The notes below the pieces were generated by a model that saw nothing but the letters and a program-made list of their open reading frames with translations, ran no database searches and had not been told where the DNA came from. This document shows positions 23,001-53,216 of a stretch of DNA of 64,000 bases, in pieces. Each line of letters starts with the position of its first letter. Position 1 is the first letter of the stretch. Origin of the DNA: Alphaproteobacteria bacterium (GTDB lineage Bacteria > Pseudomonadota > Alphaproteobacteria > SP197). The position numbers and the translations under genes are program-made. The stretch lies in assembly GCA_964291265.2 (NCBI GenBank), contig OZ219747.1, forward strand, positions 3,040,001-3,104,000, read 5' to 3'.

Positions 23001-26000
23001 CGCCTTCGCCGTCACCTATGGCGGCGCGGCGACCGGGGCCAACGACCCGGCCGAGGGCGACTACGACAACGACGCCGTCACCGAGGTCACCTTCAACGCG
23101 ACGGACAAGACGAAGACCATCAGCGTGCCGATCACCGACGATGTGCTCGACGAGAACAACGAGACCTTCACGGTGACCATCGCCCTGGCCGAGGGCCAGA
23201 GCCTGCCTCGAGGTTTCGTGCTGGGCAACACGACGACGACGGTGACCATCACCGACGACGACACCCTGGCCACCACCTGGACGCTGAGCCTCGATCCGGC
23301 GACCCTGGCCGAGGCGAGCGCCACGACTCAAGTCACGCTGACGGCGACGCGCGCCGGCACGGCGACCGCGCTGGCGGCGACCGAGATCGCCGTCAGCGTG
23401 GCCGGCGGCACGGCGACCGCGGGCGAGGACTTCACCGCGGTCACCGGGTTCACCCTCACGGTGGCCCCCGGCGCCACGACGGGCACGGCGGACTTCAACC
23501 TCGCGGTCACCGACGACGCCCGCGACGAGGCCGACGAGACGCTGACCGTCACCGGCGTCCTCGCCGGCAACACCATCACACCGGCCAGGCTCACCATCAC
23601 CGACAACGACGAGCCCCCGGAGACGCCGGATCAGCCATCGGGCCTTGTGGCGACGCCGGGCGACGGCCGCGTGACACTGGTGTGGAGTGATCCGCAGGAC
23701 GCCAGCATCGTGAAGTGGCAGTTGCGCTACGGCAAGGTGGGCGAGTCGCTGAAGCGCTGGGCGGACATCGAGGGTTCCAGCGCCACGACCACGAGCCACA
23801 CGGTGACGGGTCTGGAGAACGGTTCGGCTTACCGCTTCCGGATCCGGACAGTGAAGCGTGGGAGCAAGGGCCTGCGTTCGGAAGACGTGACGGCGACGCC
23901 GTCGGCGGAGACGCCGGATCAGCCATCGGGCCTTGTGGCGACGCCGGGCGACGGCCGCGTGACACTGGTGTGGAGTGATCCGCAGGACGCCAGCATCGTG
24001 AAGTGGCAGTTGCGCTACGGCAAGGTGGGCCGGTCGCTGAAGCGCTGGGCGGACATCGAGGGTTCCAGCGCCACGACCACGAGCCACACGGTGACGGGTC
24101 TGGAGAACGGTTCGGCTTACCGCTTCCGGATCCGGACAGTGAAGCGTGGGAGCAAGGGCCTGCGTTCGGAAGACGTGACGGCGACGCCGTCGGCGGCGAC
24201 GCCGGATCAGCAATCGGGCCTTGTGGCGACGCCGGGCGACGGCCGGGTGACACTCTCGACGGCAGCGTTGACGGTGGAGGAAGGCGGCAGCGCCACCTAC
24301 ACGGTGGTGCTGAACGCGGAACCGTCAGGGAATGTCACGGTGACGGTGGGAGGCGCCTCGGGGGACGTGAGGGTGGAGCCTGCGAACCTCACCTTTACCG
24401 TGGCCGACTGGAGTGTGCCGCAGACGGTGACGGTATCGGCGGCGGAGGACGACGATGCGGTGGCGGACGCCGCCGTGACACTGACCCATGGCGCCTCGGG
24501 CGGCGGTTATGACGGTGTGGAGATCGCCTCGATCACGGTGACGGTGACGGAGAACGACGAGGCCGGTGTGACGGTTTCGGAGAGTGTGTTGACGGTGGAG
24601 GAAGGCGGCAGCGCCACCTACACGGTGGTGCTGGAAACGAAGCCGACGGGGGATGTCACGGTGACGGTGGGAGACGCCTCGGGGGACGTGAGGGTGGCGC
24701 CTTCGAGCCTCACCTTTACCGTGGCCGACTGGAGTGCGCCGCAGACGGTGACGGTATCGGCGGCGGAGGACGATGATGCGGTGGCGGATGCCGCCGTGAC
24801 GCTGACCCATGGCGCCTCGGGCGGTGGTTATGGCGGTGTGGAGATCGCCTCGATCACGGTGACGGTGACGGAGAATGACGAAGCCGGCGTGACGGTCTCG
24901 GAGAGTGCGTTGACGGTGGAGGAAGGCAGCAGCGCCACCTACACGGTGGTGCTGGAGACGGAGCCGGCGGGGGATGTCACGGTGATGCCGTCGAGTGCTG
25001 ACCTGTCGGCGGTGGCGGTGTCGGGACCGCTCATTTTCACGGCGTCGGACTGGAAGGTGCCGCAGACCGTGACGGTGACGGGGATGCTGGACGACGACAC
25101 GGACGATGTGGTGGCGGTTGTGAGCCACGCGGTGTCGGGGGGCGACTATGACGGTGTGACGGCGGATCCGGTGAGGGTGACGGTGACGGACATGACGCTC
25201 GCCTGGCAGGTTGAGCGTGCGAACCGGGTGAACGCTTCGGTGCTGCCGCAGGTGGCCGCTGCGGTGGTGTCGCAGACACTGTCGGCAGTGACGGAGCGTA
25301 TCGATGTGGCGGCGGCGGGAGATGAGGGATCCGGCTCGATGCAGTTCGGCGCCCTGCCGTCAGCGCCGGACGAGCCCGCGCGGGATTTCCTGCCGCGCCC
25401 GGAGCAATCCGGTCCCGGTCCGACCTTGGCCGAGGCGCTGGACGGGGCGTCCTTCATGCTTCCGCTGGGTGCGACCGAAGACGAAGCGATACCGCCGCGA
25501 GCGGTGATGTGGGGCCGGGGCGGGCGGGTGTCGCTGTCGGGATCGGAGCAGGGGGTGTCGTGGGACGGCGGCCTGTGGTCGGCGCAGCTGGGGGCGGATG
25601 TGCGCCTGCGGCGGAACCTGCTGGCCGGGATGGCGGTTTCCTGGTCGGAAGGCAAGGTGGACACCGGGACAGCCGACGGCGGTGGTGGCGAGGTGGATGG
25701 CACGCACGAGACGACGGTTACGTCGATCAACCCCTATCTGGCATGGCTGTCGCCGGACGGTTCGAACCTTTGGGCGAGTGTCGGCTACGGCTTGGGCGAG
25801 GTGCGGATTGCCGAAGGGGATGCGCCGGCGCGCAGGGCGGATCTGACCCAGTGGAGCGCCGCGGCAGGTGGCCGGGGAGTTCTGGTGGGGGATGCGGAGT
25901 TGATCGCCGGGGGCGTGACGCGCCTTGCAACAAAGGGTGAAGGGGCAGCGTCATGGCTGCGCACGGGAGTGGACCACGGACTGGCGGAGTTGACGGCAAA

Positions 26001-26619
26001 GACGACGCGGCTGCGGCTGCTTCTGGAAGGGTCCCATGAGCACGGGACGGCGAGTGGCGCGACGCTGACGCCGGCGCTGGAGGTGGGGGTGCGCCACGAC
26101 GGCGGCGACCTGGGTCGGGGCTTCGGGATGGAGGCGGGGGCGGGCCTGACCTGGCGCGACTCGGCGGCGGGTCTGACGGCGGAGTTGCGCTCTCGCATCC
26201 TGGCGGCGCACGAGCGCGACCGAGACGAGTGGGGGGTGAGCGCGCTGGTGCGTTTCGACCCCGAAACCGACGGGCGCGGAACCTTTGTGACCTTCAGCCC
26301 CTCGCACGGGTGGACGGAGAGCAACATCGGCCAGTTGTTCGACTATAGTCTGCCCACGGCCGCGGCCGACGCGGCGGTGGGCGACATGGATGGCCGTCTG
26401 GAGGCGGAAGTGGGCCATGGCTTCGGTCTGCCGGGTCCGGGGCCGCTGGCGGTGTTGACGCCGTATTCCGGGCTGAGCCTTGCGGAGTCGGGCGAGCAGA
26501 CAGTGCGGCTGGGCACACGCTACCGCCTGGGTGTGCTCGATCTGGATGGCGAGTTCATGCACCGGCCGGGAGTGGCGGGCGAGCAGCGCATGATGCTGCG
26601 CGGCACACTGAGCTGGTGA
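8083..26619 (+). CDS. Giant adhesin/autotransporter, C-terminal part (FN3, Calx-beta and PKD-like repeats, C-terminal beta-barrel)
   Basis: 6178-aa ORF with Calx-beta motifs (ATAGEDF, DDxxDExDETFTVTL). The last ~450 aa have a linker helix followed by amphipathic beta strands ending LRGTLSW. No signal peptide of its own, so it is a continuation of the upstream ORF. Confidence 0.88.
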   Translation: MTVTASDGNGNADTATVVITVVRGTPGVTVTPTSLRVFEGTSETYTVVLDAPPSGPVTITLGGASGDVTVNPGGLSFTPSNWSAPQTVRVSAAPDRDSNTDPDVILTHRASGGGYDSVSVDQVTVSVIETNVEIAKPVLTAVPGDQRVTLVWDAHVLSGWIYQYREAGSGDQGWKPPNWRGDVPGGGDVTSHVVTGLRNGVEYEFRIRGHRLWIPGPISNIATATPSPGLTLSRHALRVVEGGSATYKVALDRMPPENVKVVVGVSGDVTAAPDRLTFTPSNWSAPQTVKVSAGEDGDTADDIVTLRHTATGGGFDGTRSLGGVEVTVRDTTPGDRRPELTLPGDPLVVTEGEPIIVKVLSDRHLTGKVSVSLTLAPMSSSGFDAADIAGGLTQAREADFGSVPGLTGTVSIATLPDSVVESIEDYSIRLNDGAGYRVGSDRKAPGSLKDNTGIVSMPSALTVTEGTDSARFTVTASRPFGRTIAFHVSYDRGTATGAADPADGDYDNDAVTRVVFGPAETRKDIVIPLSDDGDVETDETIVVVISPVGAFVPTGFVLGNRKTTVTIADDDTGSVTVTPTRLRVPEGGSNTYTVVLDAKPWGNVTVTPSSTDRAVAMVSGPLTFTASDWSDPQTVTVRGVHDTDPDASDASVTVSHAMSGGGYTGVRAESVAVTVTDDDAAADVDSRPSVEVELNNSGAVIGARARTPHTVSVTLDTVVRATILNSSREVNLFIRTPRDTVGPFSRELGTHTIEGELAGIPGYISRPGAKFRFVFQVDIAPPTLVAAVDRTVSVPWGQTVRQCFDLLAVKHGGTTYLERRAGRPAVSAHASLLDRKTGIVMSTSVPGIAEGRGLADLSPCVDLGPGVHRVTWVWRGPHGETIDRRQSTYVTVVAIPAAPRNLSASPGPEHVSLAWSTPPAAAPGARFSYQYRQKPGSGEYGPWTAVPGSGPATVGHRVTGLAPGVVHTFQVRAVDANGAGVASSEASAMLATRGVTVGTGSLTVREGGSGAYTVVLDAVPSGPVTVTPSSGDRSVAMVSGPLTFTAADWSKPQTVTVTGVRDEDTADEDVVVSHAVSGGGYAGVRVSSVTVTVTDTTPVLTLPTAPAAVVEGRPIVLTVASDRPLTGGLRVNLTLSDPETSGFAANDVAGGLTQAVEADFGSGGRTATVSIPTVADISVEGTESYLVTLNDGPGYAPGVAVVVAGELSDAPRRPEKPTSLRATASEDRVTLTWTAQADPSIRGWQYRERVKGYSSWLLFLGSGVKVAHASAGAGAAVRARTIDMTREYSSDGSVKNTVRRVYNGFVLEYQIRSWNDEGEGPWSDIAEVVTVNADSGATVIVSRDAIALRPGDSATWSVAMNSVLAGKVSLSARGAGGVRVEPSVLTFAGGSGQIPQEVTVTGLVEGRATIVHAYTGLGSTAVNVANAAEVAVTVTRSGAISPVRPAGFTATAGDKRVVLRWSDPGDATIATWQLRQRRSASNTAWARFPWTDIPSSDKDTVSHTVTGLDGGRSYDFQVRAVNAVGPGPASATRSAVPTGGASVTVTPIRLTVDEGGTGSFTIVLNEEPTVARLRVEAKIDRTSPQHSFAEDGLFFEASTARDKSDRYETIFLTFTPGNWNIPQKVTLRGLRDRDDRDDPITVVIDQGPSGGLWHRSNYRGIDIPNVTVTIRDASPALQLLSDPAPVTEGTPVRLTVTADRKRTGTLPVNLTLSSRSFGGFDASDIPGALTQTFEADFGSTPSRTGTVSIPTLADADTAEGAEAYAIRLNPVVGGYTVGDDVTAEGVLNDGAAATRPARPTGLAATAGDGAVALMWDDPQDATITGWQVRHSAMVSGWQGASWTDVPDAGAGTTTHRVTGLVNDRGYRFQVRAVNPAGSSLPSDVVVATPNAVPCRIGLAGLDGGAIDAGRATVSFQVKVPANCGRITDVRRQVKTTAQEWSDVPWTPLAVRAVRGWPNAGAARTGKETAELTVERGRLDVRVRAFNQQAAGPVSETAWAWFGAPDAPTGFTAAPGDGQVTLTWNAQPDQGVTGWRYTYRPSDSSEWTTVPVAGAATTTTTVTGLTNGTQYLFHVRAVGHNWSDWSAVAAVTPVNAPPCRIGIAEPRGSAISAGAEASLSFRVKVPANCGRITDIQRQIKTVAEDWDDVSWTPLSTPGARSWPNANTPATGKETATLANAQRGRHDVRVRAFNEEAGGQVSETAWAWIGAPDAPSGFAAAPGDGRMTLTWDAQPDQAISVWRYRYRSGSGPWVESVLAGSVPSSFTITGLINGTEYVFQLRAEGQGPGAWSAEVKATPAAPRSVWVPRTLTVAEDAGAVTVTVTASEAFGQGVAFNVTYGGTATGAAAPAEGDYDNDAVTEVTFSATETEKAIVIPITNDDDVEGNETFTVSVTPAGGLPDGWTLGNTTTTVTIADDDRAALAIADVTAAEGATFAFTVTASPVLSEPVGFKYKVTAASGDTAAAGEDFTAVTTATAATIAGGEATATITVAVTDDSLDEDDETFTVTLSEPSAGVRIGDATARGTITDNDEPPALAIAAPPAAVTEGDSGSTDMAFTVTLDAASGRTVTVNHAVAGTATATAGTDFTGGAGTLSFAPGETTKSITLSVTGDETDEADETVVLTLSNAQNATIATPTASATITDDDASPVLAALTALTVKVGEEASLTARASDADNDPITYAWRRTSGPTLPSGATLDAATLRFTPTAPGAYAMTVTASDGKGNADSASVTITVNPATAVSVPRTLGVAENAGTADIAITTPAAFGQSVAFAVTYGGAATGANDPAEGDYDNDAVTEVTFNATDKTKTISVPITDDVLDENNETFTVTIALAEGQSLPRGFVLGNTTTTVTITDDDTLATTWTLSLDPATLAEASATTQVTLTATRAGTATALAATEIAVSVAGGTATAGEDFTAVTGFTLTVAPGATTGTADFNLAVTDDARDEADETLTVTGVLAGNTITPARLTITDNDEPPALAIAAPPAAVTEGDSGSTDMAFTVTLDAASGRTVTVNHAVAGTATATAGTDFTGGAGTLSFAPGETTKSITLSVTGDETDEADETVVLTLSNAQNATIATPTASATITDDDASPVLAALTALTVKVGEEASLTARASDADNDPITYAWRRTSGPTLPSGATLDAATLRFTPTAPGAYAMTVTASDGKGNADSASVTITVNPATAVSVPRTLGVAENAGTADIAITTPAAFGQSVAFAVTYGGAATGANDPAEGDYDNDAVTEVTFNATDKTKTISVPITDDVLDENNETFTVTIALAEGQSLPRGFVLGNTTTTVTITDDDTLATTWTLSLDPATLAEASATTQVTLTATRAGTATALAATEIAVSVAGGTATAGEDFTAVTGFTLTVAPGATTGTADFNLAVTDDARDEADETLTVTGVLAGNTITPARLTITDNDEPPALAIAAPPAAVTEGDSGSTDMAFTVTLDAASGRTVTVNHAVAGTATATAGTDFTGGAGTLSFAPGETTKSITLSVTGDETDEADETVVLTLSNAQNATIATPTASATITDDDASPVLAALTALTVKVGEEASLTARASDADNDPITYAWRRTSGPTLPSGATLDAATLRFTPTAPGAYAMTVTASDGKGNADSASVTITVNPATAVSVPRTLGVAENAGTADIAITTPAAFGQSVAFAVTYGGAATGANDPAEGDYDNDAVTEVTFNATDKTKTISVPITDDVLDENNETFTVTIALAEGQSLPRGFVLGNTTTTVTITDDDTLATTWTLSLDPATLAEASATTQVTLTATRAGTATALAATEIAVSVAGGTATAGEDFTAVTGFTLTVAPGATTGTADFNLAVTDDARDEADETLTVTGVLAGNTITPARLTITDNDEPPALAIAAPPAAVTEGDSGSTDMAFTVTLDAASGRTVTVNHAVAGTATATAGTDFTGGAGTLSFAPGETTKSITLSVTGDETDEADETVVLTLSNAQNATIATPTASATITDDDASPVLAALTALTVKVGEEASLTARASDADNDPITYAWRRTSGPTLPSGATLDAATLRFTPTAPGAYAMTVTASDGKGNADSASVTITVNPATAVSVPRTLGVAENAGTADIAITTPAAFGQSVAFAVTYGGAATGANDPAEGDYDNDAVTEVTFNATDKTKTISVPITDDVLDENNETFTVTIALAEGQSLPRGFVLGNTTTTVTITDDDTLATTWTLSLDPATLAEASATTQVTLTATRAGTATALAATEIAVSVAGGTATAGEDFTAVTGFTLTVAPGATTGTADFNLAVTDDARDEADETLTVTGVLAGNTITPARLTITDNDEPPALAIAAPPAAVTEGDSGSTDMAFTVTLDAASGRTVTVNHAVAGTATATAGTDFTGGAGTLSFAPGETTKSITLSVTGDETDEADETVVLTLSNAQNATIATPTASATITDDDASPVLAALTALTLKVGEEASLTARASDADNDPITYAWRRTSGPTLPSGATLDAATLRFTPTAPGAYAMTVTASDGKGNADSASVTITVNPATAVSVPRTLGVAENAGTADIAITTPAAFGQSVAFAVTYGGAATGANDPAEGDYDNDAVTEVTFNATDKTKTISVPITDDVLDENNETFTVTIALAEGQSLPRGFVLGNTTTTVTITDDDTLATTWTLSLDPATLAEASATTQVTLTATRAGTATALAATEIAVSVAGGTATAGEDFTAVTGFTLTVAPGATTGTADFNLAVTDDARDEADETLTVTGVLAGNTITPARLTITDNDEPPALAIAAPPAAVTEGDSGSTDMAFTVTLDAASGRPVTVNHAVAGTATATPGTDFTGGAGTLSFAPGETTKSITLSVTGDETDEADETVVLTLSNAQNATIATPTASATITDDDASPVLAALTALTLKVGEEASLTARASDADNDPITYAWRRTSGPTLPSGATLDAATLRFTPTAPGAYAMTVTASDGKGNADSASVTITVNPATAVSVPRTLGVAENAGTADIAITTPAAFGQSVAFAVTYGGAATGANDPAEGDYDNDAVTEVTFNATDKTKTISVPITDDVLDENNETFTVTIALAEGQSLPRGFVLGNTTTTVTITDDDTLATTWTLSLDPATLAEASATTQVTLTATRAGTATALAATEIAVSVAGGTATAGEDFTAVTGFTLTVAPGATTGTADFNLAVTDDARDEADETLTVTGVLAGNTITPARLTITDNDEPPETPDQPSGLVATPGDGRVTLVWSDPQDASIVKWQLRYGKVGESLKRWADIEGSSATTTSHTVTGLENGSAYRFRIRTVKRGSKGLRSEDVTATPSAETPDQPSGLVATPGDGRVTLVWSDPQDASIVKWQLRYGKVGRSLKRWADIEGSSATTTSHTVTGLENGSAYRFRIRTVKRGSKGLRSEDVTATPSAATPDQQSGLVATPGDGRVTLSTAALTVEEGGSATYTVVLNAEPSGNVTVTVGGASGDVRVEPANLTFTVADWSVPQTVTVSAAEDDDAVADAAVTLTHGASGGGYDGVEIASITVTVTENDEAGVTVSESVLTVEEGGSATYTVVLETKPTGDVTVTVGDASGDVRVAPSSLTFTVADWSAPQTVTVSAAEDDDAVADAAVTLTHGASGGGYGGVEIASITVTVTENDEAGVTVSESALTVEEGSSATYTVVLETEPAGDVTVMPSSADLSAVAVSGPLIFTASDWKVPQTVTVTGMLDDDTDDVVAVVSHAVSGGDYDGVTADPVRVTVTDMTLAWQVERANRVNASVLPQVAAAVVSQTLSAVTERIDVAAAGDEGSGSMQFGALPSAPDEPARDFLPRPEQSGPGPTLAEALDGASFMLPLGATEDEAIPPRAVMWGRGGRVSLSGSEQGVSWDGGLWSAQLGADVRLRRNLLAGMAVSWSEGKVDTGTADGGGGEVDGTHETTVTSINPYLAWLSPDGSNLWASVGYGLGEVRIAEGDAPARRADLTQWSAAAGGRGVLVGDAELIAGGVTRLATKGEGAASWLRTGVDHGLAELTAKTTRLRLLLEGSHEHGTASGATLTPALEVGVRHDGGDLGRGFGMEAGAGLTWRDSAAGLTAELRSRILAAHERDRDEWGVSALVRFDPETDGRGTFVTFSPSHGWTESNIGQLFDYSLPTAAADAAVGDMDGRLEAEVGHGFGLPGPGPLAVLTPYSGLSLAESGEQTVRLGTRYRLGVLDLDGEFMHRPGVAGEQRMMLRGTLSW
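11059..14319 (+). repeat. 3261-bp internal duplication, copy 2
   Basis: Near-identical to 4203-7463. Confidence 0.95.
15654..23620 (+). repeat. Six tandem 1323-bp (441-aa) coding repeats
   Basis: ACCGACAACGACGAGCCCCCG recurs at 15661, 16984, 18307, 19630, 20953, 22276 and 23599. Confidence 0.97.
23619..24252 (+). repeat. 288-bp FN3 tandem repeat (2 copies plus a partial third)
   Basis: ETPDQPSGLVATPGDGRVTL at 23619 and 23907; truncated copy at ~24195. Confidence 0.92.
24268..25190 (+). repeat. Three diverged 321-bp (107-aa) Calx/cadherin-like repeats
   Basis: TTGACGGTGGAGGAAGGC at 24268, 24589 and 24910. Confidence 0.88.
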
Positions 26620-45405: not shown

Positions 45406-45942
45406 ATGGCGAATGCCAGGACAACCGGCGAGACATCGCAGGTCGCGGGTGTGGATGAGGTGATCGAGACCGGGTTCAGGGTCTCGGAGGACGTCGTGAA
45501 GGGCAACACCGATGCCACCAGGAAGGGTTTCGAGACCATGGTCACCATGGGTCGTGATGCGTTCGACAGCGCCGCCCGGACAGGTGGCGACGACACCGTT
45601 CTCGGACAGATCAACGACATGCGGCGCGCCAACTTCGAAGCGATGGTGGAAGCCGGCGCCACGTTCATCAAGGGTGTCGAGGGATTCAACGGCCGCGTCC
45701 TCGAGATCGCCAGGAGGCGGGTTGCCGAAGGCGCCGAGACCCGCAAGGCGCTCGCCGGTGCGAAGTCGTTCGGCGAAGCGGTCGAGATCCAGCAAGGTTA
45801 CGTGCGCAAGACCCTTGACCATGCCATTCAGGACAGCATGGACATGACGACTGCCTGGCTGCGCATCGCTGCCGAGAGCGGCCAGCCGCTCGGCCAGCGG
45901 TTCACCGATGCCTGGAGCCGGGCTGTTCGCCAGACTGCCTGA
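45406..45942 (+). CDS. phaP: Phasin family protein
   Basis: RANFEAMVEAG...KALAGAKSFGEAVEIQQGYVR; GGAG RBS; position upstream of clpS-clpA. Confidence 0.85.
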   Translation: MANARTTGETSQVAGVDEVIETGFRVSEDVVKGNTDATRKGFETMVTMGRDAFDSAARTGGDDTVLGQINDMRRANFEAMVEAGATFIKGVEGFNGRVLEIARRRVAEGAETRKALAGAKSFGEAVEIQQGYVRKTLDHAIQDSMDMTTAWLRIAAESGQPLGQRFTDAWSRAVRQTA

Positions 45943-46489
45943 TTGAGCGTTCCTTTCGAACAGCGCCCCCGCAGGGTCATGAAGACCCGGCGGGAGTGTT
46001 GGCGTTCGGAAACAGGCCGGGCGGGCGGCGAGGCCTTCGAGGACGCCCGATTCCCGTGCAGGGCACGGGCTGCGATGTTCGCACTCCCCTCAGTCCATTC
46101 GAATCCACGAACGCATCGGTGGTCCTGCCGGCAGCCATCGGAATGGCGGCTGGGAGAAGAGCGCGCGTCTCCGGTAGTCTGCGAGGATTCCAGAAATCTG
46201 CCGCTCCGGTCAGCACGCACCGGATGAGTAAGCGTTCGGCCGTGCGGTGACGGCCGATTTTGGTTGGTTTTGGGATTTGCTGACAACCGTCTGAGAAAGT
46301 GCTGGCAAGCATCCTCAACCGGTGAATATCACCAACAATCATCGCGCGACCGACCGCTTACCCCGAAGCCCTATTGGCAGGAAAGGACGCCCGGGAGACC
46401 TCAAGCACGATGACCTGCAAGCGTGCGGTCTTGCCCCGGTTTTCGCTCGGCATTCTCTCAGGCGCCGTCATCCCCTCATGAGCGAACGC

Positions 46490-46876
46490 TTACCGCTGCC
46501 TGGGCCTGGCGGCCAGCACATCATCAAGACTTGGGGCGGCCAGCACCGCCTCCGCCCAGGCTTCCAGTTCGGCGGACGAGGCGTTGCGGACCCGCTCGCG
46601 GACCGCATCCGGCACATCACCGAAGCGCAAGGACAGTTGACGAAGAAGAAGTTCCGCGAGGGCCTCGCTCCGGCCTCGTTCGAGTCCCCTCTGGAGTCCC
46701 CTCTCGATACCCTCGGCTCGTCCTCTCTCGATACCCTCGGCTCTTCCCCTCTCGATACCCTCGGCTCTTCCTCTCTCGATACCCTCGGCTCTTCCCCTCT
46801 CGAGTCCCTCGGCTCTTCCCCTCTCGAGTCCCTCGGATCTTCCCTGTTCGACCCAGGTTTGTGCGATCGTGCCCAT
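46490..46876 (-). CDS. Putative internal in-frame small protein (RpnS-like antitoxin) of copy 1, 128 aa
   Basis: GGAGG-TGTTG-ATG GGC ACG inside the rpn ORF. Equivalent ORFs at 48107-48517, 49749-50051 and 51285-51575. Confidence 0.65.
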   Translation of the reverse strand: MGTIAQTWVEQGRSEGLERGRAEGLERGRAEGIERGRAEGIERGRAEGIERGRAEGIERGLQRGLERGRSEALAELLLRQLSLRFGDVPDAVRERVRNASSAELEAWAEAVLAAPSLDDVLAARPRQR

Positions 46877-47671
46877 CAACACCTCCCAATGGTCCGGCTT
46901 CGTCCGGCGCAAAGACGCCTCCAGCATGGCCGGCGTCAGGCCCTTGTGCTCGGTCATGTAGCGCACAATATGGTGCTCGAAGTCGCTCCCTGCAAGCAGC
47001 CCGTCCATGATCACGTCGAGAAGATCGGGCGGTACCTCCTCGGCAAAGGCAAACCTGAGCGCCAGAAGAGCGGACCGCACCTCGGGCGAGGTCGACGGCC
47101 GGTCCGGCGCCATCTCCCCGAGGTCGTGCACCACATAGGCGAACTCCCTGACGAACGACTTCAGCTTCTCGGGCGCGTCGATCATCTTCAGCACCGAGCG
47201 CGCCGCCTTCCAGCGCCCCCGGCCGTGATAGAAGACCAGGGGGATGATCGCCGGCAGCTTGATGTCGTTCCCGCCGCCCTCGCTCTTGCTCCGCTCGCTC
47301 TTGCTCCGCTCGATCTCGCGCCGCCAGATGTTGACCATGTATCCCAGAAGCTGGAGCGGCGTCTCGGCGTCGACGTAGCTCTTGTGTTCGAGCAGCACGT
47401 AAAGGCGCGCATCTTTGCCGTCCTTCAATCTCACCCGGAACAGCGCATCGCACTGGGTGGTACGGGCGGCCTTGTCGACGAAACTCTCCCCAACCGCCTC
47501 GAACGGCGCCTCGGGATCGAGGAGTTCAGCCACCTTCCGCGGCAGGTAGTCGGTGAGCAGAGAAGCGGCACGGGACGGTTCGGAGACCAGTGCCCGGAAC
47601 AGCGTATCGTGTCGATTCACCGGAAGTCTCACCGAGCGAGACCCCGGCGTTTCAACGGGCATCGTGCTCAC
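46490..47671 (-). CDS. Rpn/YhgA-family PD-(D/E)XK nuclease, copy 1 (DUF4351-like C-terminus)
   Basis: HDTLF, SFVD, CDALF, YVLLEHKS, LPAIIPLVFYHG, LMGTIAQTW, (GRAEGIER)n, LLRQLSLRFG...LEAWAE. Exact start uncertain. Confidence 0.92.
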   Translation of the reverse strand: MSTMPVETPGSRSVRLPVNRHDTLFRALVSEPSRAASLLTDYLPRKVAELLDPEAPFEAVGESFVDKAARTTQCDALFRVRLKDGKDARLYVLLEHKSYVDAETPLQLLGYMVNIWRREIERSKSERSKSEGGGNDIKLPAIIPLVFYHGRGRWKAARSVLKMIDAPEKLKSFVREFAYVVHDLGEMAPDRPSTSPEVRSALLALRFAFAEEVPPDLLDVIMDGLLAGSDFEHHIVRYMTEHKGLTPAMLEASLRRTKPDHWEVLMGTIAQTWVEQGRSEGLERGRAEGLERGRAEGIERGRAEGIERGRAEGIERGRAEGIERGLQRGLERGRSEALAELLLRQLSLRFGDVPDAVRERVRNASSAELEAWAEAVLAAPSLDDVLAARPRQR

Positions 47672-48106
47672 GGGTTGGAAGGGGGAAGGTGTTCGTCATG
47701 GCGGCACCCTACGCCGAACAGCACCAAGGCGGCAATCGCGGCGCCTGACCCGGGGTGAGGCCTGCCAGGCGTCAAGACCTCGATGGCGCTTGTTCCTCAG
47801 GTCGCCGCCATGCCCGTACTTCACTCGGGTGGCCTCAGCCCAAGCTATGGCCCCTCCCTATGCTGGGTTGTGGAACTGATAGAAGACCAGTGATCACCCG
47901 CGATTTTGGCAACAAACTTCAAGGTCACCAACCCGCCCTCGTCCCCGCCTTCGATACCTCAAGACCGCTTCGCTGCCTGCCGAAGCCATAGTGGCAGGAA
48001 AGGACGCCCGGGAGACCTCATGCACGATGACCTGCAAGCGTCCGGTCTTGCCCCGGTTTTCGCTCGGCATTCTCCCAAGCGCTGTCATCCCCTCATGAGC
48101 GAACGC

Positions 48107-49313
48107 TTACCGCTGCCTGGGCCTGGCGGCCAGCACATCATCAAGACTTGGGGCAGCCAGCACCGCCTCCGCCCAGGCCTCCAGTTCGGCGGCCGACGCG
48201 CCGCGCACCCGCTCGCGGACCGCATCCGGCACATCACCGAAGCGCAGGGACAGTTGACGAAGAAGAAGTTCCGCGAGGGCCTCGCTCCGGCCTCGTTCGA
48301 GTCCCCTCTGGAGTCCCCTCTCGAGTCCCTCGGCTCTTCCTCTCTCGATCCCTTCGGCTCTTCCTCTCTCGATACCCTCGGCTCTTCCTCTCTCGATACC
48401 CTCGGCTCTTCCTCTCTCGATACCCTCGGCTCTTCCTCTCTCGATACCCTCGGCTCTTCCCCTCTCGATACCCTCGGCTCTTCCCTGTTCGACCCAGGTT
48501 TGTGCGATCGTGCCCATCAACACCTCCCAATGGTCCGGCTTCGTCCGGCGCAGTGACGCCTCCAGCATGGCCGGCGTCAGGCCCTTGTGCTCGGTCATGT
48601 AGCGCACAATATGGTGCTCGAAGTCGCTCCCTGCAAGCAGCCCGTCCATGATCACGTCGAGAAGATCGGGCGGTACCTCCTCGGCAAAGGCAAACCTGAG
48701 CGCCAGAAGAGCGGACCGCACCTCGGGCGAGGTCGACGGCCGGTCCGGCGCCATCTCCCCGAGGTCGTGCACCACATAGGCGAACTCCCTGACGAACGAC
48801 TTCAGCTTCTCGGGCGCGTCGATCATCTTCAGCACCGAGCGCGCCGCCTTCCAGCGACCCCGGCCGTGATAGAAGACCAGGGGGATGATCGCCGGCAGCT
48901 TGATGTCGTTCCCGCCGCCCTCGCTCTTGCTCCGCTCGCTCTTGCTCCGCTCGATCTCGCGCCGCCAGATGTTGACCATGTATCCCAGAAGCTGGAGCGG
49001 CGTCTCGGCGTCGACGTAGCTCTTGTGTTCGAGCAGCACGTAGAGGCTTAGCATCTTGGCCGTCCTTCAATCTCACCCGGAACAGCGCATCGCACTGGGT
49101 GGTACGGGCGGCCTTGTCGACGAAACTCTCCCCAACCGCCTCGAACGGCGCCTCGGGATCGAGGAGTTCAGCCACCTTCCGCGGCAGGTAGTCGGTGAGC
49201 AGAGAAGCGGCACGGGACGGTTCGGAGACCAGTGCCCGGAACAGCGTATCGTGTCGATTCACCGGAAGTCTCACCGAGCGAGACCCCGGCGTTTCAACGG
49301 GCATCGTGCTCAC
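48107..49313 (-). pseudogene. Rpn-family nuclease copy 2, frameshifted; C-terminal small ORF intact
   Basis: At ~49048 'GGCTTAGCATCTTGG' replaces 'GGCGCGCATCTTTG' (+1 nt), splitting the gene just before YVLLEHKS. Confidence 0.88.
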
Positions 49314-49748
49314 GGGTTGGAAGGGGGAAGGTGTTCGTCATGGCGGCACCCTACGCCGAACAGCACCAAGGCGGCAATCGCGGCGCCTGACCCGGGGTGA
49401 GGCCTGCCAGGCGTCAAGACCTCGATGGCGCTTGTTCCTCAGGTCGCCGCCATGCCCGTACTTCACTCGGGTGGCCTCAGCCCAAGCTATGGCCCCTCCC
49501 TATGCTGGGTTGTGGAACTGATAGAAGACCAGTGATCACCCGCGATTTTGGCAACAAACTTCAAGGTCACCAACCCGCCCTCGTCCCCGCCTTCGATACC
49601 TCAAGACCGCTTCGCTGCCTGCCGAAGCCATAGTGGCAGGAAAGGACGCCCGGGAGACCTCATGCACGATGACCTGCAAGCGTCCGATCTTGCCCCGGTT
49701 TTCGCTCGGCACTCTCTCAGGCGCCGTCATCCCCTCATGAGCGAACGC

Positions 49749-50846
49749 TTACCGTTGCCTGGGCCTGGCGGCCAGTACATCATCAAGACTTGGGGCGGCC
49801 AGCACCGCCTCCGCCCAGGCTTCCAGTTCGGCGGCCGACGCGCCGCGCACCCGCTCGCGGACCGCATCCGGCACATCACCGAAGCGCAGGGACAGTTGAC
49901 GAAGAAGAAGTTCCGCGAGGGCCTCGCTCCGGCCTCGTTCGAGTCCCCTCTCGATACCCTCGGCTCTTCCTCTCTCGATACCCTCGGCTCTTCCCCTCTC
50001 GATACCCTCGGCTCTTCCCTGTTCGACCCAGGTTTGTGCGATCGTGCCCATCAACACCTCCCAATGGTCCGGCTTCGTCCGGCGCAAAGACGCCTCCAGC
50101 ATGGCCGGCGTCAGGCCCTTGTGCTCGGTCATATAGCGCACAATATGATGCTCGAAGTCGCTCCCTGCAAGCAGCCCGTCCATGATCACGTCGAGAAGAT
50201 CGGGCGGTACCTCCTCGGCAAAGGCAAACCTGAGCGCCAGAAGAGCGGACCGCACCTCGGGCGAGGTCGACGGCCGGTCCGGCGCCATCACCCCGAGGTC
50301 GTGCACCACATAGGCGAACTCCCTGACGAACGACTTCAGCTTCTCGGGCGCGTCGATCATCTTCAGCACCGAGCGCGCCGCCTTCCAGCGACCCCGGCCG
50401 TGATAGAAGACCAGGGGGATGATCGCCGGCAGCTTGATGTCGTTCCCGCCGCCCTCGCTCTTGCTCCGCTCGCTCTTGCTCCGCTCGATCTCGCGCCGCC
50501 AGATGTTGACCATGTATCCCAGAAGCTGGAGCGGCGTCTCGGCGTCGACCTGGCTCTTATGTTCGAGCAGCACGTAGAGGCGCGCATCTTTGCCGTCCTT
50601 CAATCTCACCCGGAACAGCGCATCGCACTGGGTGGTACGGGCGGCCTTGTCGACGAAACTCTCCCCAACCGCCTCGAACGGCGCCTCGGGATCGAGGAGT
50701 TCAGCCACCTTCCGCGGCAGGTAGTCGGTGAGCAGAGAAGCGGCACGGGACGGTTCGGAGACCAGTGCCCGGAACAGCGTATCGTGTCGATTCACCGGAA
50801 GTCTCACCGAGCGAGACCCCGGCGTTACAACGGGCATCGTGCTCAC
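49749..50846 (-). CDS. Rpn-family nuclease copy 3
   Basis: Near-identical to copy 1; 3 octapeptide repeats; EHKSQ variant. Confidence 0.92.
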   Translation of the reverse strand: MSTMPVVTPGSRSVRLPVNRHDTLFRALVSEPSRAASLLTDYLPRKVAELLDPEAPFEAVGESFVDKAARTTQCDALFRVRLKDGKDARLYVLLEHKSQVDAETPLQLLGYMVNIWRREIERSKSERSKSEGGGNDIKLPAIIPLVFYHGRGRWKAARSVLKMIDAPEKLKSFVREFAYVVHDLGVMAPDRPSTSPEVRSALLALRFAFAEEVPPDLLDVIMDGLLAGSDFEHHIVRYMTEHKGLTPAMLEASLRRTKPDHWEVLMGTIAQTWVEQGRAEGIERGRAEGIERGRAEGIERGLERGRSEALAELLLRQLSLRFGDVPDAVRERVRGASAAELEAWAEAVLAAPSLDDVLAARPRQR

Positions 50847-51284
50847 GGGCTGGAAGAGGGAAGGTGTTCGTCATGGCGGCACCCTACGCCGAACAGCACC
50901 AGGGCGGCAATCGCGGCGCCTGACCCGGGGTGAGGCCTGCCAGGCGTCAAGACCTCGATGGCGCTTGTTCCTCAGGTCGCCGCCATGCCCCCGTACTTCA
51001 CTCGGGTGGCCTCAGCCCAAGCTATGGCCCCTCCCTATGCTGGGTTGTGGAACTGATAGAAGACCAGTGATCACCCGCGATTTTGGCAACAAACTTCAAG
51101 GTCACCAACCCGCCCTCGTCCCCGCCTTCGATACCTCCAAGACCGCTTCGCTGCCTGCCGAAGCCGTATTGGCAGGAAAGGACACCCGGGAGACATCATG
51201 CACGATGACCTGCAAGCGTCCGGTCTTGCCCCGGTTTTCGCTCGGCATTCTCCCAAGCGCTGTCATCCCCTCATGAGCGAACGC

Positions 51285-52355
51285 TTACCGCTGCCTGGGC
51301 CTGGCGGCCAGCACATCATCAAGACTTGGGGCAGCCAGCACCGCCTCCGCCCAGGCCTCCAGTTCGGCGGCCGACGCGCCGCGCACCCGCTCGCGGACCG
51401 CATCCGGCACATCACCGAAGCGCAGGGACAGTTGACGAAGAAGAAGTTCCGCGAGGGCCTCGCTCCGGCCTCGTTCGAGTCCCCTCTGGAGTCCCCTCTC
51501 GAGTCCCTCGGCTCTTCCCCTCTCGATACCCTCGGCTCTTCCCTGTTCGACCCAGGTTTGTGCGATCGTGCCCATCAACACCTCCCAATGGTCCGGCTTC
51601 GTCCGGCGCAAAGACGCCTCCAGCATGGCCGGCGTCAGGCCCTTGTGCTCGGTCATGTAGCGCACAATATGGTGCTCGAAGTCGCTCCCTGCAAGCAGCC
51701 CGTCCATGATCACGTCGAGAAGATCGGGCGGTACCTCCTCGGCAAAGGCAAACCTGAGCGCCAGAAGAGCGGACCGCACCTCGGGCGAGGTCGACGGCCG
51801 GTCCGGCGCCATCTCCCCGAGGTCGTGCACCACATAGGCGAACTCCCTGACGAACGACTTCAGCTTCTCGGGCGCGTCGATCATCTTCAGCACCGAGCGC
51901 GCCGCCTTCCAGCGACCCCGGCCGTGATAGAAGACCAGGGGGATGATCGCCGGCAGCTTGATGTCGTTCCCGCCGCCCTCGCTCTTGCTCCGCTCGATCT
52001 CGCGCCGCCAGATGTTGACCATGTATCCCAGGAGCTGGAGCGGCGTCTCGGCGTCGACGTAGCTCTTATGTTCGAGCAGCACGTAGAGGCGCGCATCTTT
52101 GCCGTCCTTCAATCTCACCCGGAACAGCGCATCGCACTGGGTGGTACGGGCGGCCTTGTCGACGAAACTGCCCTCGACCGCCTCCGGCTGCGCCTTGGGG
52201 TCGAGGAGGTCAGCCACCTTCCGCGGCAGGTAGTCGGTGAGCAGAGAAGCGGCACGGGACGGTTCGGAGACCAGTGCCCGGAACAGCGCATCGTGCCGAT
52301 TCACCGGAAGTCTCACCGAGCGAGACCCCGGCGTTTCAACGGGCATCGCGCTCAC
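51285..52355 (-). CDS. Rpn-family nuclease copy 4
   Basis: Near-identical; 2 octapeptide repeats; distinct DPKAQPEAVEGS patch; one fewer SKSER unit. Confidence 0.92.
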   Translation of the reverse strand: MSAMPVETPGSRSVRLPVNRHDALFRALVSEPSRAASLLTDYLPRKVADLLDPKAQPEAVEGSFVDKAARTTQCDALFRVRLKDGKDARLYVLLEHKSYVDAETPLQLLGYMVNIWRREIERSKSEGGGNDIKLPAIIPLVFYHGRGRWKAARSVLKMIDAPEKLKSFVREFAYVVHDLGEMAPDRPSTSPEVRSALLALRFAFAEEVPPDLLDVIMDGLLAGSDFEHHIVRYMTEHKGLTPAMLEASLRRTKPDHWEVLMGTIAQTWVEQGRAEGIERGRAEGLERGLQRGLERGRSEALAELLLRQLSLRFGDVPDAVRERVRGASAAELEAWAEAVLAAPSLDDVLAARPRQR

Positions 52356-52889
52356 GGGTTGGAAGAGGGAAGGTGTTCGTCATGGCGGCACCCTACGCCG
52401 AACAGCACCAAGGCGACAATCGCGGCGCCTGACCCGGAGTGAGGCCTGCCGGGCGTCAAGACCTCGATGGCGCTTGTTCCTCAGGTCGCCGCCATGCCCC
52501 CGTACTTCACTCGGGTGGCCTCAGCCCAAGCTATGGCCCCTCCCTATGCTGTGTTGTGGAACTGATAGGAGACCAGTGATCACCCGCGATTTTGGCAACA
52601 AACTTCAAGGTCACCAACCCGCCCCCGCCTTCGATACCTCAAGACCGCTTCGCTGCCTGCCGAAGCCGTATTGGCAGGAAAGGACGCCCGGGAGACCTCA
52701 TGCACGATGACCTGCAAGCGTCCGGTCTTGCCCCGGCATTCGCTCGGCACTCTCCCAGGCGCCGTCATCCCCTCATGAGCGAACGCTTACCCGGATGACG
52801 GCGGTGAACAGCGACCGGCGTCTGGCCTGTTGTCTGCATTGCGGGTATGATCGATTCTCCAGACTTCGTCATGCGTCCGATGGTGCCAC

Positions 52890-53216
52890 ATGAGTGACGA
52901 CAATCGCCGGAACAGTGATGGCAGCGGGACCGGTGTCGCGACCCGGGTTCGGCAGAAGACGCGGAAGCCCTCCATGTACAAGGTGCTTCTGCTCAACGAC
53001 GACTACACGCCGATGGAGTTTGTCGTTCACGTGCTGGTCAGGTTCTTCCACAAGGGCCCCGAGGAAGCGGCTCGAGTCATGCTTCACGTGCACCGTCATG
53101 GTGTCGGCCTGTGCGGCGTCTATCCCTTCGATGTCGCCGAGAGCAAGGTGACGCAGGTCATCGACTTTGCGCGGCTCCACGAACACCCCCTGCAGGCCAC
53201 GCTCGAAAAGGAATGA
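52890..53216 (+). CDS. clpS: ATP-dependent Clp protease adaptor
   Basis: [31 protein letters not shown]. Confidence 0.98.

What the first reader, a model, noticed from the sequence alone, without database searches (positions are those of the whole stretch)
46490..51575. Gene-within-gene RpnS-like antitoxins with four different repeat lengths
Seen: each copy has GGAGG-N5-ATG in frame (ATG at 46876, 48517, 50051, 51575), giving 128, 136, 100 and 96-aa proteins. They differ mainly in the number of 24-bp GRAEG(I/L)ER repeats (6, 7, 3, 2), while the nuclease parts are near-identical. Known: enterobacterial Rpn proteins are neutralised by internally translated C-terminal small proteins starting at a similar MTIA motif. 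Inference: a VNTR-tuned helical length diversifies toxin-antitoxin pairing or phage sensing within one array.
Basis: partly seen in the sequence, partly recalled or inferred. Interest (0 to 1): 0.7.

Follow-up and report, generated by a model that had tools for sequence, protein, structure and literature searches.

The report
Rpn toxin-antitoxin array riding IS66 ends
Four tandem copies of a known nuclease gene, each likely making its own built-in antidote, sit inside a transposase-less mobile cassette found at four places in this genome, which gives a concrete route by which genes described as lacking transposon ends likely spread.

Summary
In detail: four rpn copies, each with GGAGG-N5-ATG giving 128, 136, 100 and 96 aa. 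Two corrections: the length unit is 12 bp (14, 16, 7, 6 units), and copy 2 is frameshifted in its nuclease part. Zhong 2023 showed internal RpnS starts, repeat-number specificity and tandem arrays; Koonin 2023 proposed per-copy phage targeting.

The array lies in a 6,563-bp element with IS66-type inverted ends and an exact 8-bp target duplication. Three single-gene copies elsewhere have their own 8-bp duplications, relatives show the empty site, and an IS66 transposase element with matching ends is abundant. In a Candidatus Binatia genome the same rpn clade rides IS630-type ends at 9 of 10 loci. Both papers say rpn genes lack such ends; I found no report of this in the searches run.

Internal translation is supported by sequence and a predicted RpnS-RpnL complex, but not measured. 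Selection for different repeat numbers is not shown: broken copies vary as much. The scan noted other nuclease-carrying hitchhikers in other genomes, none with Rpn. Verdict: new variant of a known kind, moderate interest.

The parts
46228..52790 (-). Whole transposase-less cassette (6,563 bp) bounded by IS66-type terminal inverted repeats beginning GTAAGCGTTCG
   Evidence: none of the 86 PF03050 matches in the genome lies inside it
46220..46227 (+). Target-site duplication, left copy (CCGGATGA)
   Evidence: single copy at the empty site in G016 and G001
52791..52798 (+). Target-site duplication, right copy (CCGGATGA)
46228..46361 (.). 134-bp miniature IS66 (both ends of the 2,883-bp IS66-family element joined); supplies the cassette's downstream end
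   Evidence: the sister copy at C2:66118-66252 matches the two ends of the 2,883-bp element at 94% over 54 nt and 86% over 81 nt, and this copy at 94%
52660..52790 (-). Upstream end: ~131-bp direct repeat, a worn copy of a ~122-bp IS66-type MITE
51158..51288 (-). Direct repeat at the junction of units 4 and 3; its first bases give copy 4's stop codon
49622..49752 (-). Direct repeat at the junction of units 3 and 2
47980..48110 (-). Direct repeat at the junction of units 2 and 1
46362..46493 (-). Direct repeat after copy 1, abutting the miniature IS66
46490..47671 (-). rpn copy 1, 393 aa, intact (PF04754 + PF14261)
46490..46876 (-). Predicted RpnS 1, 128 aa; GGAGG at 46882-46886; 14 tetrad units at about 46676-46843
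48107..49313 (-). rpn copy 2, frameshifted near 49050 (codon 89/90); same allele at G000 C2:1601468 and C1:40394
   Evidence: allele present in contigs of runs X1 and X2
48107..48517 (-). Predicted RpnS 2, 136 aa; GGAGG at 48523-48527; 16 tetrad units at about 48293-48484
49749..50846 (-). rpn copy 3, 365 aa, intact
49749..50051 (-). Predicted RpnS 3, 100 aa; GGAGG at 50057-50061; 7 tetrad units at about 49935-50018
51285..52355 (-). rpn copy 4, 356 aa, intact
51285..51575 (-). Predicted RpnS 4, 96 aa; GGAGG at 51581-51585; 6 tetrad units at about 51471-51542
45406..45942 (+). Phasin gene, host gene left of the insertion (not part of the element)
   Evidence: PF09361
52890..53216 (+). clpS, host gene right of the insertion (not part of the element)
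   Evidence: PF02617

Best explanation
This is a tandem array of four Rpn-family nuclease genes inside a transposase-less cassette with IS66-type ends and an 8-bp target duplication; each gene likely makes an internally started antitoxin, and the cassette is likely moved by an IS66 transposase encoded elsewhere in the genome. Shown: the ends, the duplications at four loci, the empty site, the copies and their lengths. Inferred, step by step: (1) ribosomes start at the internal GGAGG-N5-ATG and make RpnS. (2) RpnS pairs in parallel and in register with the same helix of the full-length protein, a glycine every fourth residue at the interface, so by analogy with E. coli RpnC only a partner of equal tetrad number would block the nuclease. 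(3) An IS66-type MITE landed at the 3' end of an rpn gene, a second copy upstream plus a miniature IS66 downstream made a movable unit, and it transposed to at least four sites. (4) Recombination between the ~131-bp direct repeats and between copies built the array from already different units. (5) Slippage and unequal exchange change the tetrad number quickly; the different lengths are most simply the product of that mutability, with private toxin-antitoxin pairs as the likely consequence.
For: Ends and duplications: exact 8-bp duplications at 4 of 4 cassette loci; flanks unique in the genome. Empty site with one CCGGATGA in G016 and G001; clpS follows the phasin gene in 8 of 11 congener loci and 0 of 11 hold rpn. 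The C2:1597656-1601907 copy splits an open frame that carries DUF3644. Donor: 116 exact GTAAGCGTTCG against 1.9 expected, 26 of 59 inward-facing end pairs with an 8-bp duplication (25 exact), a 2,883-bp element with a 555-aa PF03050 ORF. Second case: IS630-type ends around rpn at 9 of 10 loci in OZ219754.1. Internal start: Met in 112 of 113 homologues; ATG in 75 of 75 aligned loci, Glu codon GAG in 75 of 75 against 892 of 1,074 elsewhere in these genes, GGAG or GAGG in 74 of 75; GTG behind GGAGG in G011; stand-alone duplicates in 4 of 8 rpn-positive congeners. Pairing: score 0.67, best control 0.00, a mark reached by 116 of 157 solved and 2 of 215 mismatched pairs; runs agree in at least 97% of contacts; partner pLDDT at least 88. 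Recombination: 146 of 231 informative site pairs are incompatible, and array units are no closer to each other (97.3-98.6%) than to dispersed copies (97.1-99.0%). Mutability: broken copies have 16, 7, 21 units.
Against: Translation, toxicity, neutralisation and movement were not measured. The SD is encoded by Trp-Glu-Val, and Trp and Glu are nearly invariant, so part of its conservation may be protein-level. Met112 (99 of 115) and Met158 (109 of 115) are also conserved, and the 75 loci hold only 37 distinct contexts from related genomes. No sigma-70-like internal promoter was found. These proteins have Lys where E. coli RpnA has Gln84, and RpnA-Q84K is inactive; a reciprocal Gln at the Arg94 position may compensate, which is inferred. 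In this genome constraint on the nuclease part is weak (pN/pS 0.39 for 4 intact cassette copies, 9 synonymous against 10 non-synonymous codons; 0.64 for 5 older copies) and 3 of 7 cassette copies are frameshifted. The complex score may reflect likeness to the solved RpnAS dimer. Most relatives have no such ends: a generic scan flagged 10 of 77 loci, all apparently chance, though it also missed the Binatia ends, whose duplication is shorter than its 5-bp minimum.
Confidence: 0.72

Rival explanations
1. One reading: the tetrad numbers within the array are diversified by selection, so that each copy is a separate anti-phage sensor or avoids cross-neutralisation, and the array is a defence battery.
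For: Repeat number sets RpnS-RpnL specificity and RpnP2 blocks T-even phages in E. coli (PMC10400941). All four intact cassette copies differ in length. The nuclease part is under clear purifying selection in the Binatia copies, pN/pS 0.11, 23 synonymous against 7 non-synonymous codons in 9 copies.
Against: Distinctness is what random draws give: p = 0.52 for the 4 intact cassette copies, 0.69 for all 7, 0.16 for 10 Binatia copies, 0.91 for 9 G009 copies (crude uniform null, low power). Broken copies vary as widely. The locus lies between phasin and clpS, not in a defence island. No meaningful PADLOC match.
Confidence: 0.25
2. Selfish addiction module: the one-gene toxin-antitoxin protects the cassette against loss, and a new tetrad number makes a copy individually addictive because resident antitoxins cannot rescue its deletion.
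For: Recurrent packaging between unrelated IS ends. All 17 matches to the IS630-type end in G061 lie at or within the rpn loci, and 9 of 10 copies keep an open nuclease frame under purifying selection. The direct repeats make pop-out of a unit easy, yet no repeat without rpn was found in this genome. Toxin-antitoxin pairs on Tn3 transposons are known (PMC7157771, search listing only).
Against: No excess of distinct lengths. Frameshifted copies stand at 3 of 7 positions, two of them single-gene cassettes, so an intact toxin is not needed to persist. Weak constraint in this genome.
Confidence: 0.15
3. Decaying passenger: the genes are being copied by an IS66 expansion and are losing function; the internal start is an inherited leftover and the repeats drift.
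For: 3 of 7 cassette copies frameshifted, several other rpn remnants in the genome, pN/pS 0.39-0.64, heavy IS load.
Against: 9 intact nuclease frames in this genome keep the CDALF, EHKS and PLQLLGY motifs; all tetrad changes keep the frame; relatives are under purifying selection.
Confidence: 0.2
4. Rpn itself is the transposase of the element (the old 'transposase_31 / ISNCY' annotation).
For: rpn is the only gene in the cassette. In G061 no transposase gene with the same ends was found among three DDE_3 loci checked. Rpn promotes RecA-independent recombination (PMC5350276, abstract listing and passages).
Against: The ends and the 8-bp duplication are those of IS66 elements without rpn in the same genome (22 such pairs). 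The same protein clade sits between unrelated IS630-type ends elsewhere. Two of the three dispersed cassettes carry a broken rpn.
Confidence: 0.03
5. The array or the frameshift is an assembly artefact.
For: No contig spans the array in the runs laid; only parts of it were laid.
Against: Units differ by 28-42 substitutions and share alleles with distant loci. The left junction is bridged without differences in X1. The frameshift allele is in X1 and X2 contigs, and interior contigs have about 5.7-6.7 times the flank depth in X1 (depth is no strict copy number and X1 may be the source sample). Tandem rpn units occur in other genomes (L084, L138).
Confidence: 0.04

Closest known systems
Rpn (YhgA-like, PF04754, COG5464) gene-within-gene toxin-antitoxin systems; Zhong et al. 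2023, PMC10400941 (main text parts 1-4 of 5 read; supplement searched for six terms) and Koonin 2023, PMC10400984 (whole text read)
   Same: Domain make-up, internal SD and start at the homologous Met, four-residue repeats starting 12 residues after that Met in a long helix, stand-alone small-gene duplicates in relatives, tandem arrays, many copies per genome.
   Different: Distant clade (31% identity to a Serratia plasmid Rpn) with Lys/Gln where RpnA has Gln84/Arg94. Very long repeat tracts (up to 21 tetrads). Above all it is flanked by terminal inverted repeats and target duplications at several sites, which both papers state rpn genes lack; Zhong et al. only proposed hitchhiking.
Mobile insertion cassettes and MITEs (PMC3129680, passages read); IS66 family, single-ORF ISBst12 group (PMC12898284, passages) and passenger-carrying tIS66 (PMC12888890, passages)
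   Same: GTAA-type inverted ends (ISPsko1 ends begin GTAAGCGTCC), 8-bp duplication, no transposase inside, cognate transposase elsewhere, passenger gene.
   Different: Built from two kinds of MITE, not by internal replacement of one IS. The upstream MITE is repeated on both sides of the cargo, so the cargo can amplify in tandem inside the ends. The cargo is a predicted one-gene toxin-antitoxin.
Toxin-antitoxin pairs carried by Tn3-family transposons (PMC7157771, search listing only)
   Same: A toxin-antitoxin module travels as transposon cargo.
   Different: Those are two-gene systems on Tn3 elements (recalled); here one gene lies on a non-autonomous IS derivative and has a variable repeat that would set specificity.

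Membership tests
Rpn / YhgA-like toxin-antitoxin (PF04754) | Transposase_31 domain over Pfam cut-off plus C-terminal DUF4351 | tested here: met
   141-147 bits against 21, and 36-37 bits against 25, in 3 of 3 intact copies
Rpn / YhgA-like toxin-antitoxin (PF04754) | Acidic catalytic residues (RpnA D11, D63, E82) | tested here: met
   D22, D75, E95 align with D9, D61, E81 of a Serratia Rpn and are conserved in 94 of 95, 104 of 104 and 111 of 112 homologues. The mapping from Serratia to RpnA numbering is inferred. Copy 2 separates the first two from the third.
Rpn / YhgA-like toxin-antitoxin (PF04754) | Gln84 / Arg94 pair of RpnA | tested here: inconclusive
   Swapped to K97 / Q107, both near-invariant in this clade; Q84K alone inactivates RpnA. 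Fold matches to NucS (Z 6.3, rmsd 3.3, 103 aligned) and Shedu (Z 5.5, rmsd 4.0, 111 aligned) are middling.
Rpn / YhgA-like toxin-antitoxin (PF04754) | Internal ribosome-binding site and start codon at the homologous position | tested here: met
   Sequence level only:
Rpn / YhgA-like toxin-antitoxin (PF04754) | Separate translation of RpnS | not testable with these tools
   Needs ribosome profiling or proteomics
Rpn / YhgA-like toxin-antitoxin (PF04754) | Four-residue repeats, variable in number, 8-20 residues after the internal Met, in a long helix | tested here: met
   Start at residue 12; 6-21 units; Met-to-core distance is 3 mod 4 in 89 of 90 homologues; predicted helix 257-313
Rpn / YhgA-like toxin-antitoxin (PF04754) | RpnS binds RpnL through the repeat helix | tested here: inconclusive
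   The model supports it but does not show it: 0.67 against best control 0.00; mark reached by 116 of 157 solved and 2 of 215 mismatched pairs; may reflect likeness to the solved RpnAS dimer
Rpn / YhgA-like toxin-antitoxin (PF04754) | Toxicity of RpnL, repeat-matched neutralisation, phage defence | not testable with these tools
   Bench tests needed
NCBIfam TIGR01784 subfamily and enterobacterial RpnA / ISNCY equivalogs | Score over curated cut-off | tested here: not met
   22.5-29.8 bits against 52.1; 30-41 against 583. Not filed under these narrower models.
Non-autonomous IS66 derivative (mobile insertion cassette) | Terminal inverted repeats shared with an IS66 element | tested here: met
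   compare the ISPsko1 ends
Non-autonomous IS66 derivative (mobile insertion cassette) | 8-bp target-site duplication | tested here: met
   Exact at 4 of 4 loci; empty site in G016 and G001; 8-bp repeat reported for ISDge4
Non-autonomous IS66 derivative (mobile insertion cassette) | No own transposase; cognate transposase elsewhere in the genome | tested here: met
   No PF03050 match in the window cassette; 555-aa PF03050 ORF in the 2,883-bp element with matching ends. The C2:1597656 copy holds a different, nested 2.45-kb IS.
Non-autonomous IS66 derivative (mobile insertion cassette) | Mobilisation in trans shown | not testable with these tools
   Inferred from four insertion sites
Autonomous element with Rpn as transposase | Ends specific to rpn elements and shared across the protein clade | tested here: not met
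   The ends belong to IS66 here and are IS630-like in G061

The most novel reading that the evidence does not exclude
Rpn genes of this clade are recurrent, selected cargo of transposase-less elements built from unrelated IS families. The tetrad repeat works as a self-renewing lock-and-key code: each new repeat number makes a copy that resident antitoxins cannot neutralise, so every copy becomes individually addictive or an independent phage tripwire, and MITE-derived direct repeats let the cassette collect differently keyed units into one movable array.
Probability: 0.2. Interest if true: 0.7.

Novelty: new variant of a known kind. Interest (0 to 1): 0.4.

Why it matters
How rpn genes spread, and what drives their repeat variation, were left open in 2023. 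Here the route is visible: defined ends, target duplications, an empty site and a donor transposase, with an independent capture by another IS family in a second genome. It qualifies the statement that rpn genes lack transposon ends without making Rpn a transposase. The seven near-identical cassette genes are also a natural panel. Four are intact with 6, 7, 11 and 14 tetrads and three are broken with 7, 16 and 21, so cross-neutralisation, rescue in trans by a broken copy of equal length, and addiction against defence can be tested directly. The parts (Rpn systems, passenger cassettes) are each known, so the interest is moderate.

Tried and rejected
No RNA holder listed, so nothing on expression. 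No sigma-70-like promoter or terminator in 51200-52900; 0.2 and 0.7 expected. No solved relative by sequence. Foldseek gave nothing at E <= 0.001 and VIA-align nothing at Z >= 8; the RpnAS structure 7TH0 is not among the listed rows. PADLOC gave only weak matches. NCBIfam FliH and Pfam Yae1_N hits come from the glycine repeats and are below cut-off; rejected.

Empty site for the C2:1597656 copy: its flank was not found in 5 of 5 congeners searched. The cassette's downstream end matched only weakly (74-78%) in 2 of 22 congeners. X2 and X3 contigs run 27 bases into the end at 46228, under the 31 needed to count as bridging.

Test for over-distinct lengths: not significant in 4 of 4 sets. Generic end-plus-duplication scan of 77 related loci: 10 flagged, apparently chance; it missed the Binatia ends. 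L083 has rpn between two IS66-type MITEs but no duplication, and L080 lacks a detected end pair. A donor transposase with the Binatia ends was not found among 3 of 17 DDE_3 matches checked.

Literature: eight searches (listings only, except the papers named as read) showed no report of rpn inside inverted-repeat elements. The library lacks most subscription papers and ISfinder was not available, so absence from print is not established. In Zhong 2023 I read supplement passages and legends only; Fig. S1B and Dataset S1 were not seen. PMC95320 was not held. Rfam found nothing in the window.

Full report
Observation. The minus strand holds four head-to-tail units of 1.5-1.6 kb, 97.2-98.2% identical. 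Each has a PF04754 domain and a C-terminal DUF4351. The internal ATGs, the GGAGG five bases upstream, the lengths 128, 136, 100 and 96 aa and the octapeptide counts 6, 7, 3 and 2 are as reported. The true unit is 12 bp, with 14, 16, 7 and 6 copies; in homologues the distance from this Met to the C-terminal core is 3 mod 4 in 89 of 90. Copy 2 is frameshifted near 49050. The same allele is at two other loci and in contigs of runs X1 and X2; all X3 depth at that place lacked the extra base. It is a real allele. It also brings an ATG at 49054 into frame behind an AAGGA, which could give a product lacking D22 and D75 (untested).

Internal start. The Met aligns with the M of MTIAQ in a Serratia Rpn. 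It is Met in 112 of the 113 homologues with a residue there, of 115 aligned after leaving out five from this genome. In 75 of 77 related loci the position could be aligned: all 75 have ATG, all use GAG for the preceding Glu (other Glu codons 892 of 1,074), 55 have GGAGG and 74 have GGAG or GAGG. A congener gene in G011 has GTG behind GGAGG, which points to selection for a start codon and not for Met, and a stand-alone duplicate there shares sequence from only 17 nt upstream of its ATG. Stand-alone duplicates were seen in 4 of the 8 rpn-positive congeners, of 22 searched, from a subset of their loci. The long form's candidate starts have no SD. Against this: the SD is spelled by conserved Trp-Glu codons, two other Met are also conserved, the 75 loci hold 37 distinct contexts from related genomes, and no promoter was found.

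Structure. AlphaFold2 (pLDDT 89) gives a nuclease-type domain, a helical linker, one helix from 257 to 313 and a small helical bundle. Fold matches to PD-(D/E)XK enzymes are middling. The complex of copy 4 with its own residues 261-356 scored 0.67 against a best control of 0.00. That mark was reached by 116 of 157 solved and 2 of 215 mismatched pairs; runs agree in at least 97% of contacts and partner pLDDT is at least 88. The model is a parallel, in-register helix pair in which glycines 272 to 296, every fourth residue, meet their twins; the interface also includes residues 232-245 of the long chain. A partner of different length could not keep both ends in register, which would explain length specificity. 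This is a prediction, may echo the solved RpnAS dimer, and no mismatched pair was modelled.

What is already known. Zhong et al. (PMC10400941) showed internal translation, toxicity, neutralisation that needs an equal repeat number, stand-alone small genes, tandem arrays and phage defence. Koonin (PMC10400984) wrote that repeat variation will prevent inhibition in trans and that copies may target different phages. Both papers state that rpn genes lack flanking repeats and target duplications; Zhong et al. suggest hitchhiking.

The vehicle. The array lies between inverted ends at 52790 and 46228, both starting GTAAGCGTTCG, with CCGGATGA on each side. Three single-gene versions, at C2:64403-66252, C2:1597656-1601907 and C1:38865-40833, each have their own exact 8-bp duplication. 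Congeners G016 and G001 have the phasin and clpS genes adjacent with one CCGGATGA; 8 of 11 loci show the adjacency and 0 of 11 hold rpn. One copy splits a DUF3644 frame and another lies in a worn DUF4143 gene. The 11-mer occurs 116 times against 1.9 expected; 26 of 59 inward-facing pairs have an 8-bp duplication, 22 of them outside the rpn cassettes; a 2,883-bp element with these ends encodes a 555-aa IS66 transposase. Such ends, 8-bp repeats, single-ORF members and passengers are described for IS66, and cassettes moved in trans are a known class. The downstream end is a 134-bp miniature of that element. The ~131-bp direct repeat on both sides of each rpn is a worn ~122-bp MITE; five older rpn copies or remnants carry that MITE only at their 3' end and four have none. 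This suggests the order of assembly but does not prove it.

How the array formed. Array units are no closer to one another (97.3-98.6%) than to the dispersed copies (97.1-99.0%), and 146 of 231 informative site pairs are incompatible. The copies therefore recombine. Unequal exchange through the direct repeats, or pop-out and reintegration of unit circles, would stack already different units; neither intermediate was seen.

A second case. In the Candidatus Binatia record OZ219754.1, 9 of 10 rpn loci lie in 1.6-1.7-kb elements with ~27-bp inverted ends, CTA on the left in 8 of 9, and a DDE_3 transposase remnant. The IS630 reading of a TA/CTAG target is recalled. All 17 matches to the end pattern are at or within those loci. 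Nine copies have open nuclease frames with pN/pS 0.11. Other genomes show tandem units (L084, L138) or rpn between two IS66-type MITEs without a duplication (L083). In most of the 77 loci no ends were found, with a scan of limited sensitivity.

Is the length variation selected? Not shown. The three broken copies have 16, 7 and 21 units, although recombination can reshuffle alleles. Lengths are no more distinct than uniform draws (p 0.16-0.91; weak test). Constraint on the nuclease in this genome is modest (pN/pS 0.39 and 0.64, few sites). The neighbours are housekeeping genes. The clade has Lys and Gln where RpnA has Gln84 and Arg94, and Q84K alone inactivates RpnA, so activity needs a test.

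Verdict. It works like an Rpn toxin-antitoxin and meets every family feature testable here except the inconclusive Gln/Arg pair and the binding model; it falls below the narrower NCBIfam models. It is packaged as a non-autonomous IS66 cassette that has amplified its cargo in tandem. I did not find this packaging in eight literature searches, which cover only part of the literature. Earlier notes of this scan describe other nuclease cargo on such elements in other genomes (unchecked), none with Rpn. New variant of a known kind; interest 0.4.

Noticed in passing
L001:313-537 (G000 C2:1876928-1879810): The 2,883-bp IS66-family element holds a group II intron match (RF02005, 170 bits) and no long ORF besides the transposase; a 2,264-bp element with the same ends has no Rfam match.
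   Followed up: partly
L053-L054 (G009 C2:710000-750000): A cluster of at least nine rpn genes, several alternating with porin genes in ~3-kb tandem units beside two integrases; predicted RpnS lengths 67-95 aa. Porins are common phage receptors (recalled).
   Followed up: partly
L061:2790-6954 (G000 C2:1938790-1942954): An older rpn copy directly follows 2,739 bp of the IS66 element, replacing its last 144 bp, and ends in an IS66-type end: a transposase-plus-rpn arrangement without a matching duplication.
   Followed up: partly
L058:1752-4202 (G000 C2:1597752-1600202): A second, 2.45-kb IS with GTAACTGCCCAGG ends is nested in the miniature IS66 of one cassette, with its own 8-bp duplication.
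   Followed up: partly
window 47279-47324, 48920-48965, 50454-50499: A second variable repeat (15 bp, ERSKS) inside the nuclease domain, one unit shorter in copy 4.
   Followed up: no
window 8083-26619: A 6,178-aa ORF with internal repeats about 1,323 bp apart and 288- and 321-bp tandem repeats, after a 1,780-aa ORF at 2730-8072; likely giant surface proteins (not annotated).
   Followed up: no
L125:3829, L147:3658: Two relatives have the conserved Trp codon just before the internal start changed to TGA, ending the long form while leaving a purine-rich site and the small ORF.
   Followed up: no
G000 C1:279000-279123, C2:1509751-1509872, C2:2585829-2585951: Free ~122-bp IS66-type MITEs with their own 8-bp duplications, the family from which the cassette's direct repeat derives.
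   Followed up: yes
L152:312-1408 (G061): A CRISPR-like repeat array next to an IS630-type element.
   Followed up: no
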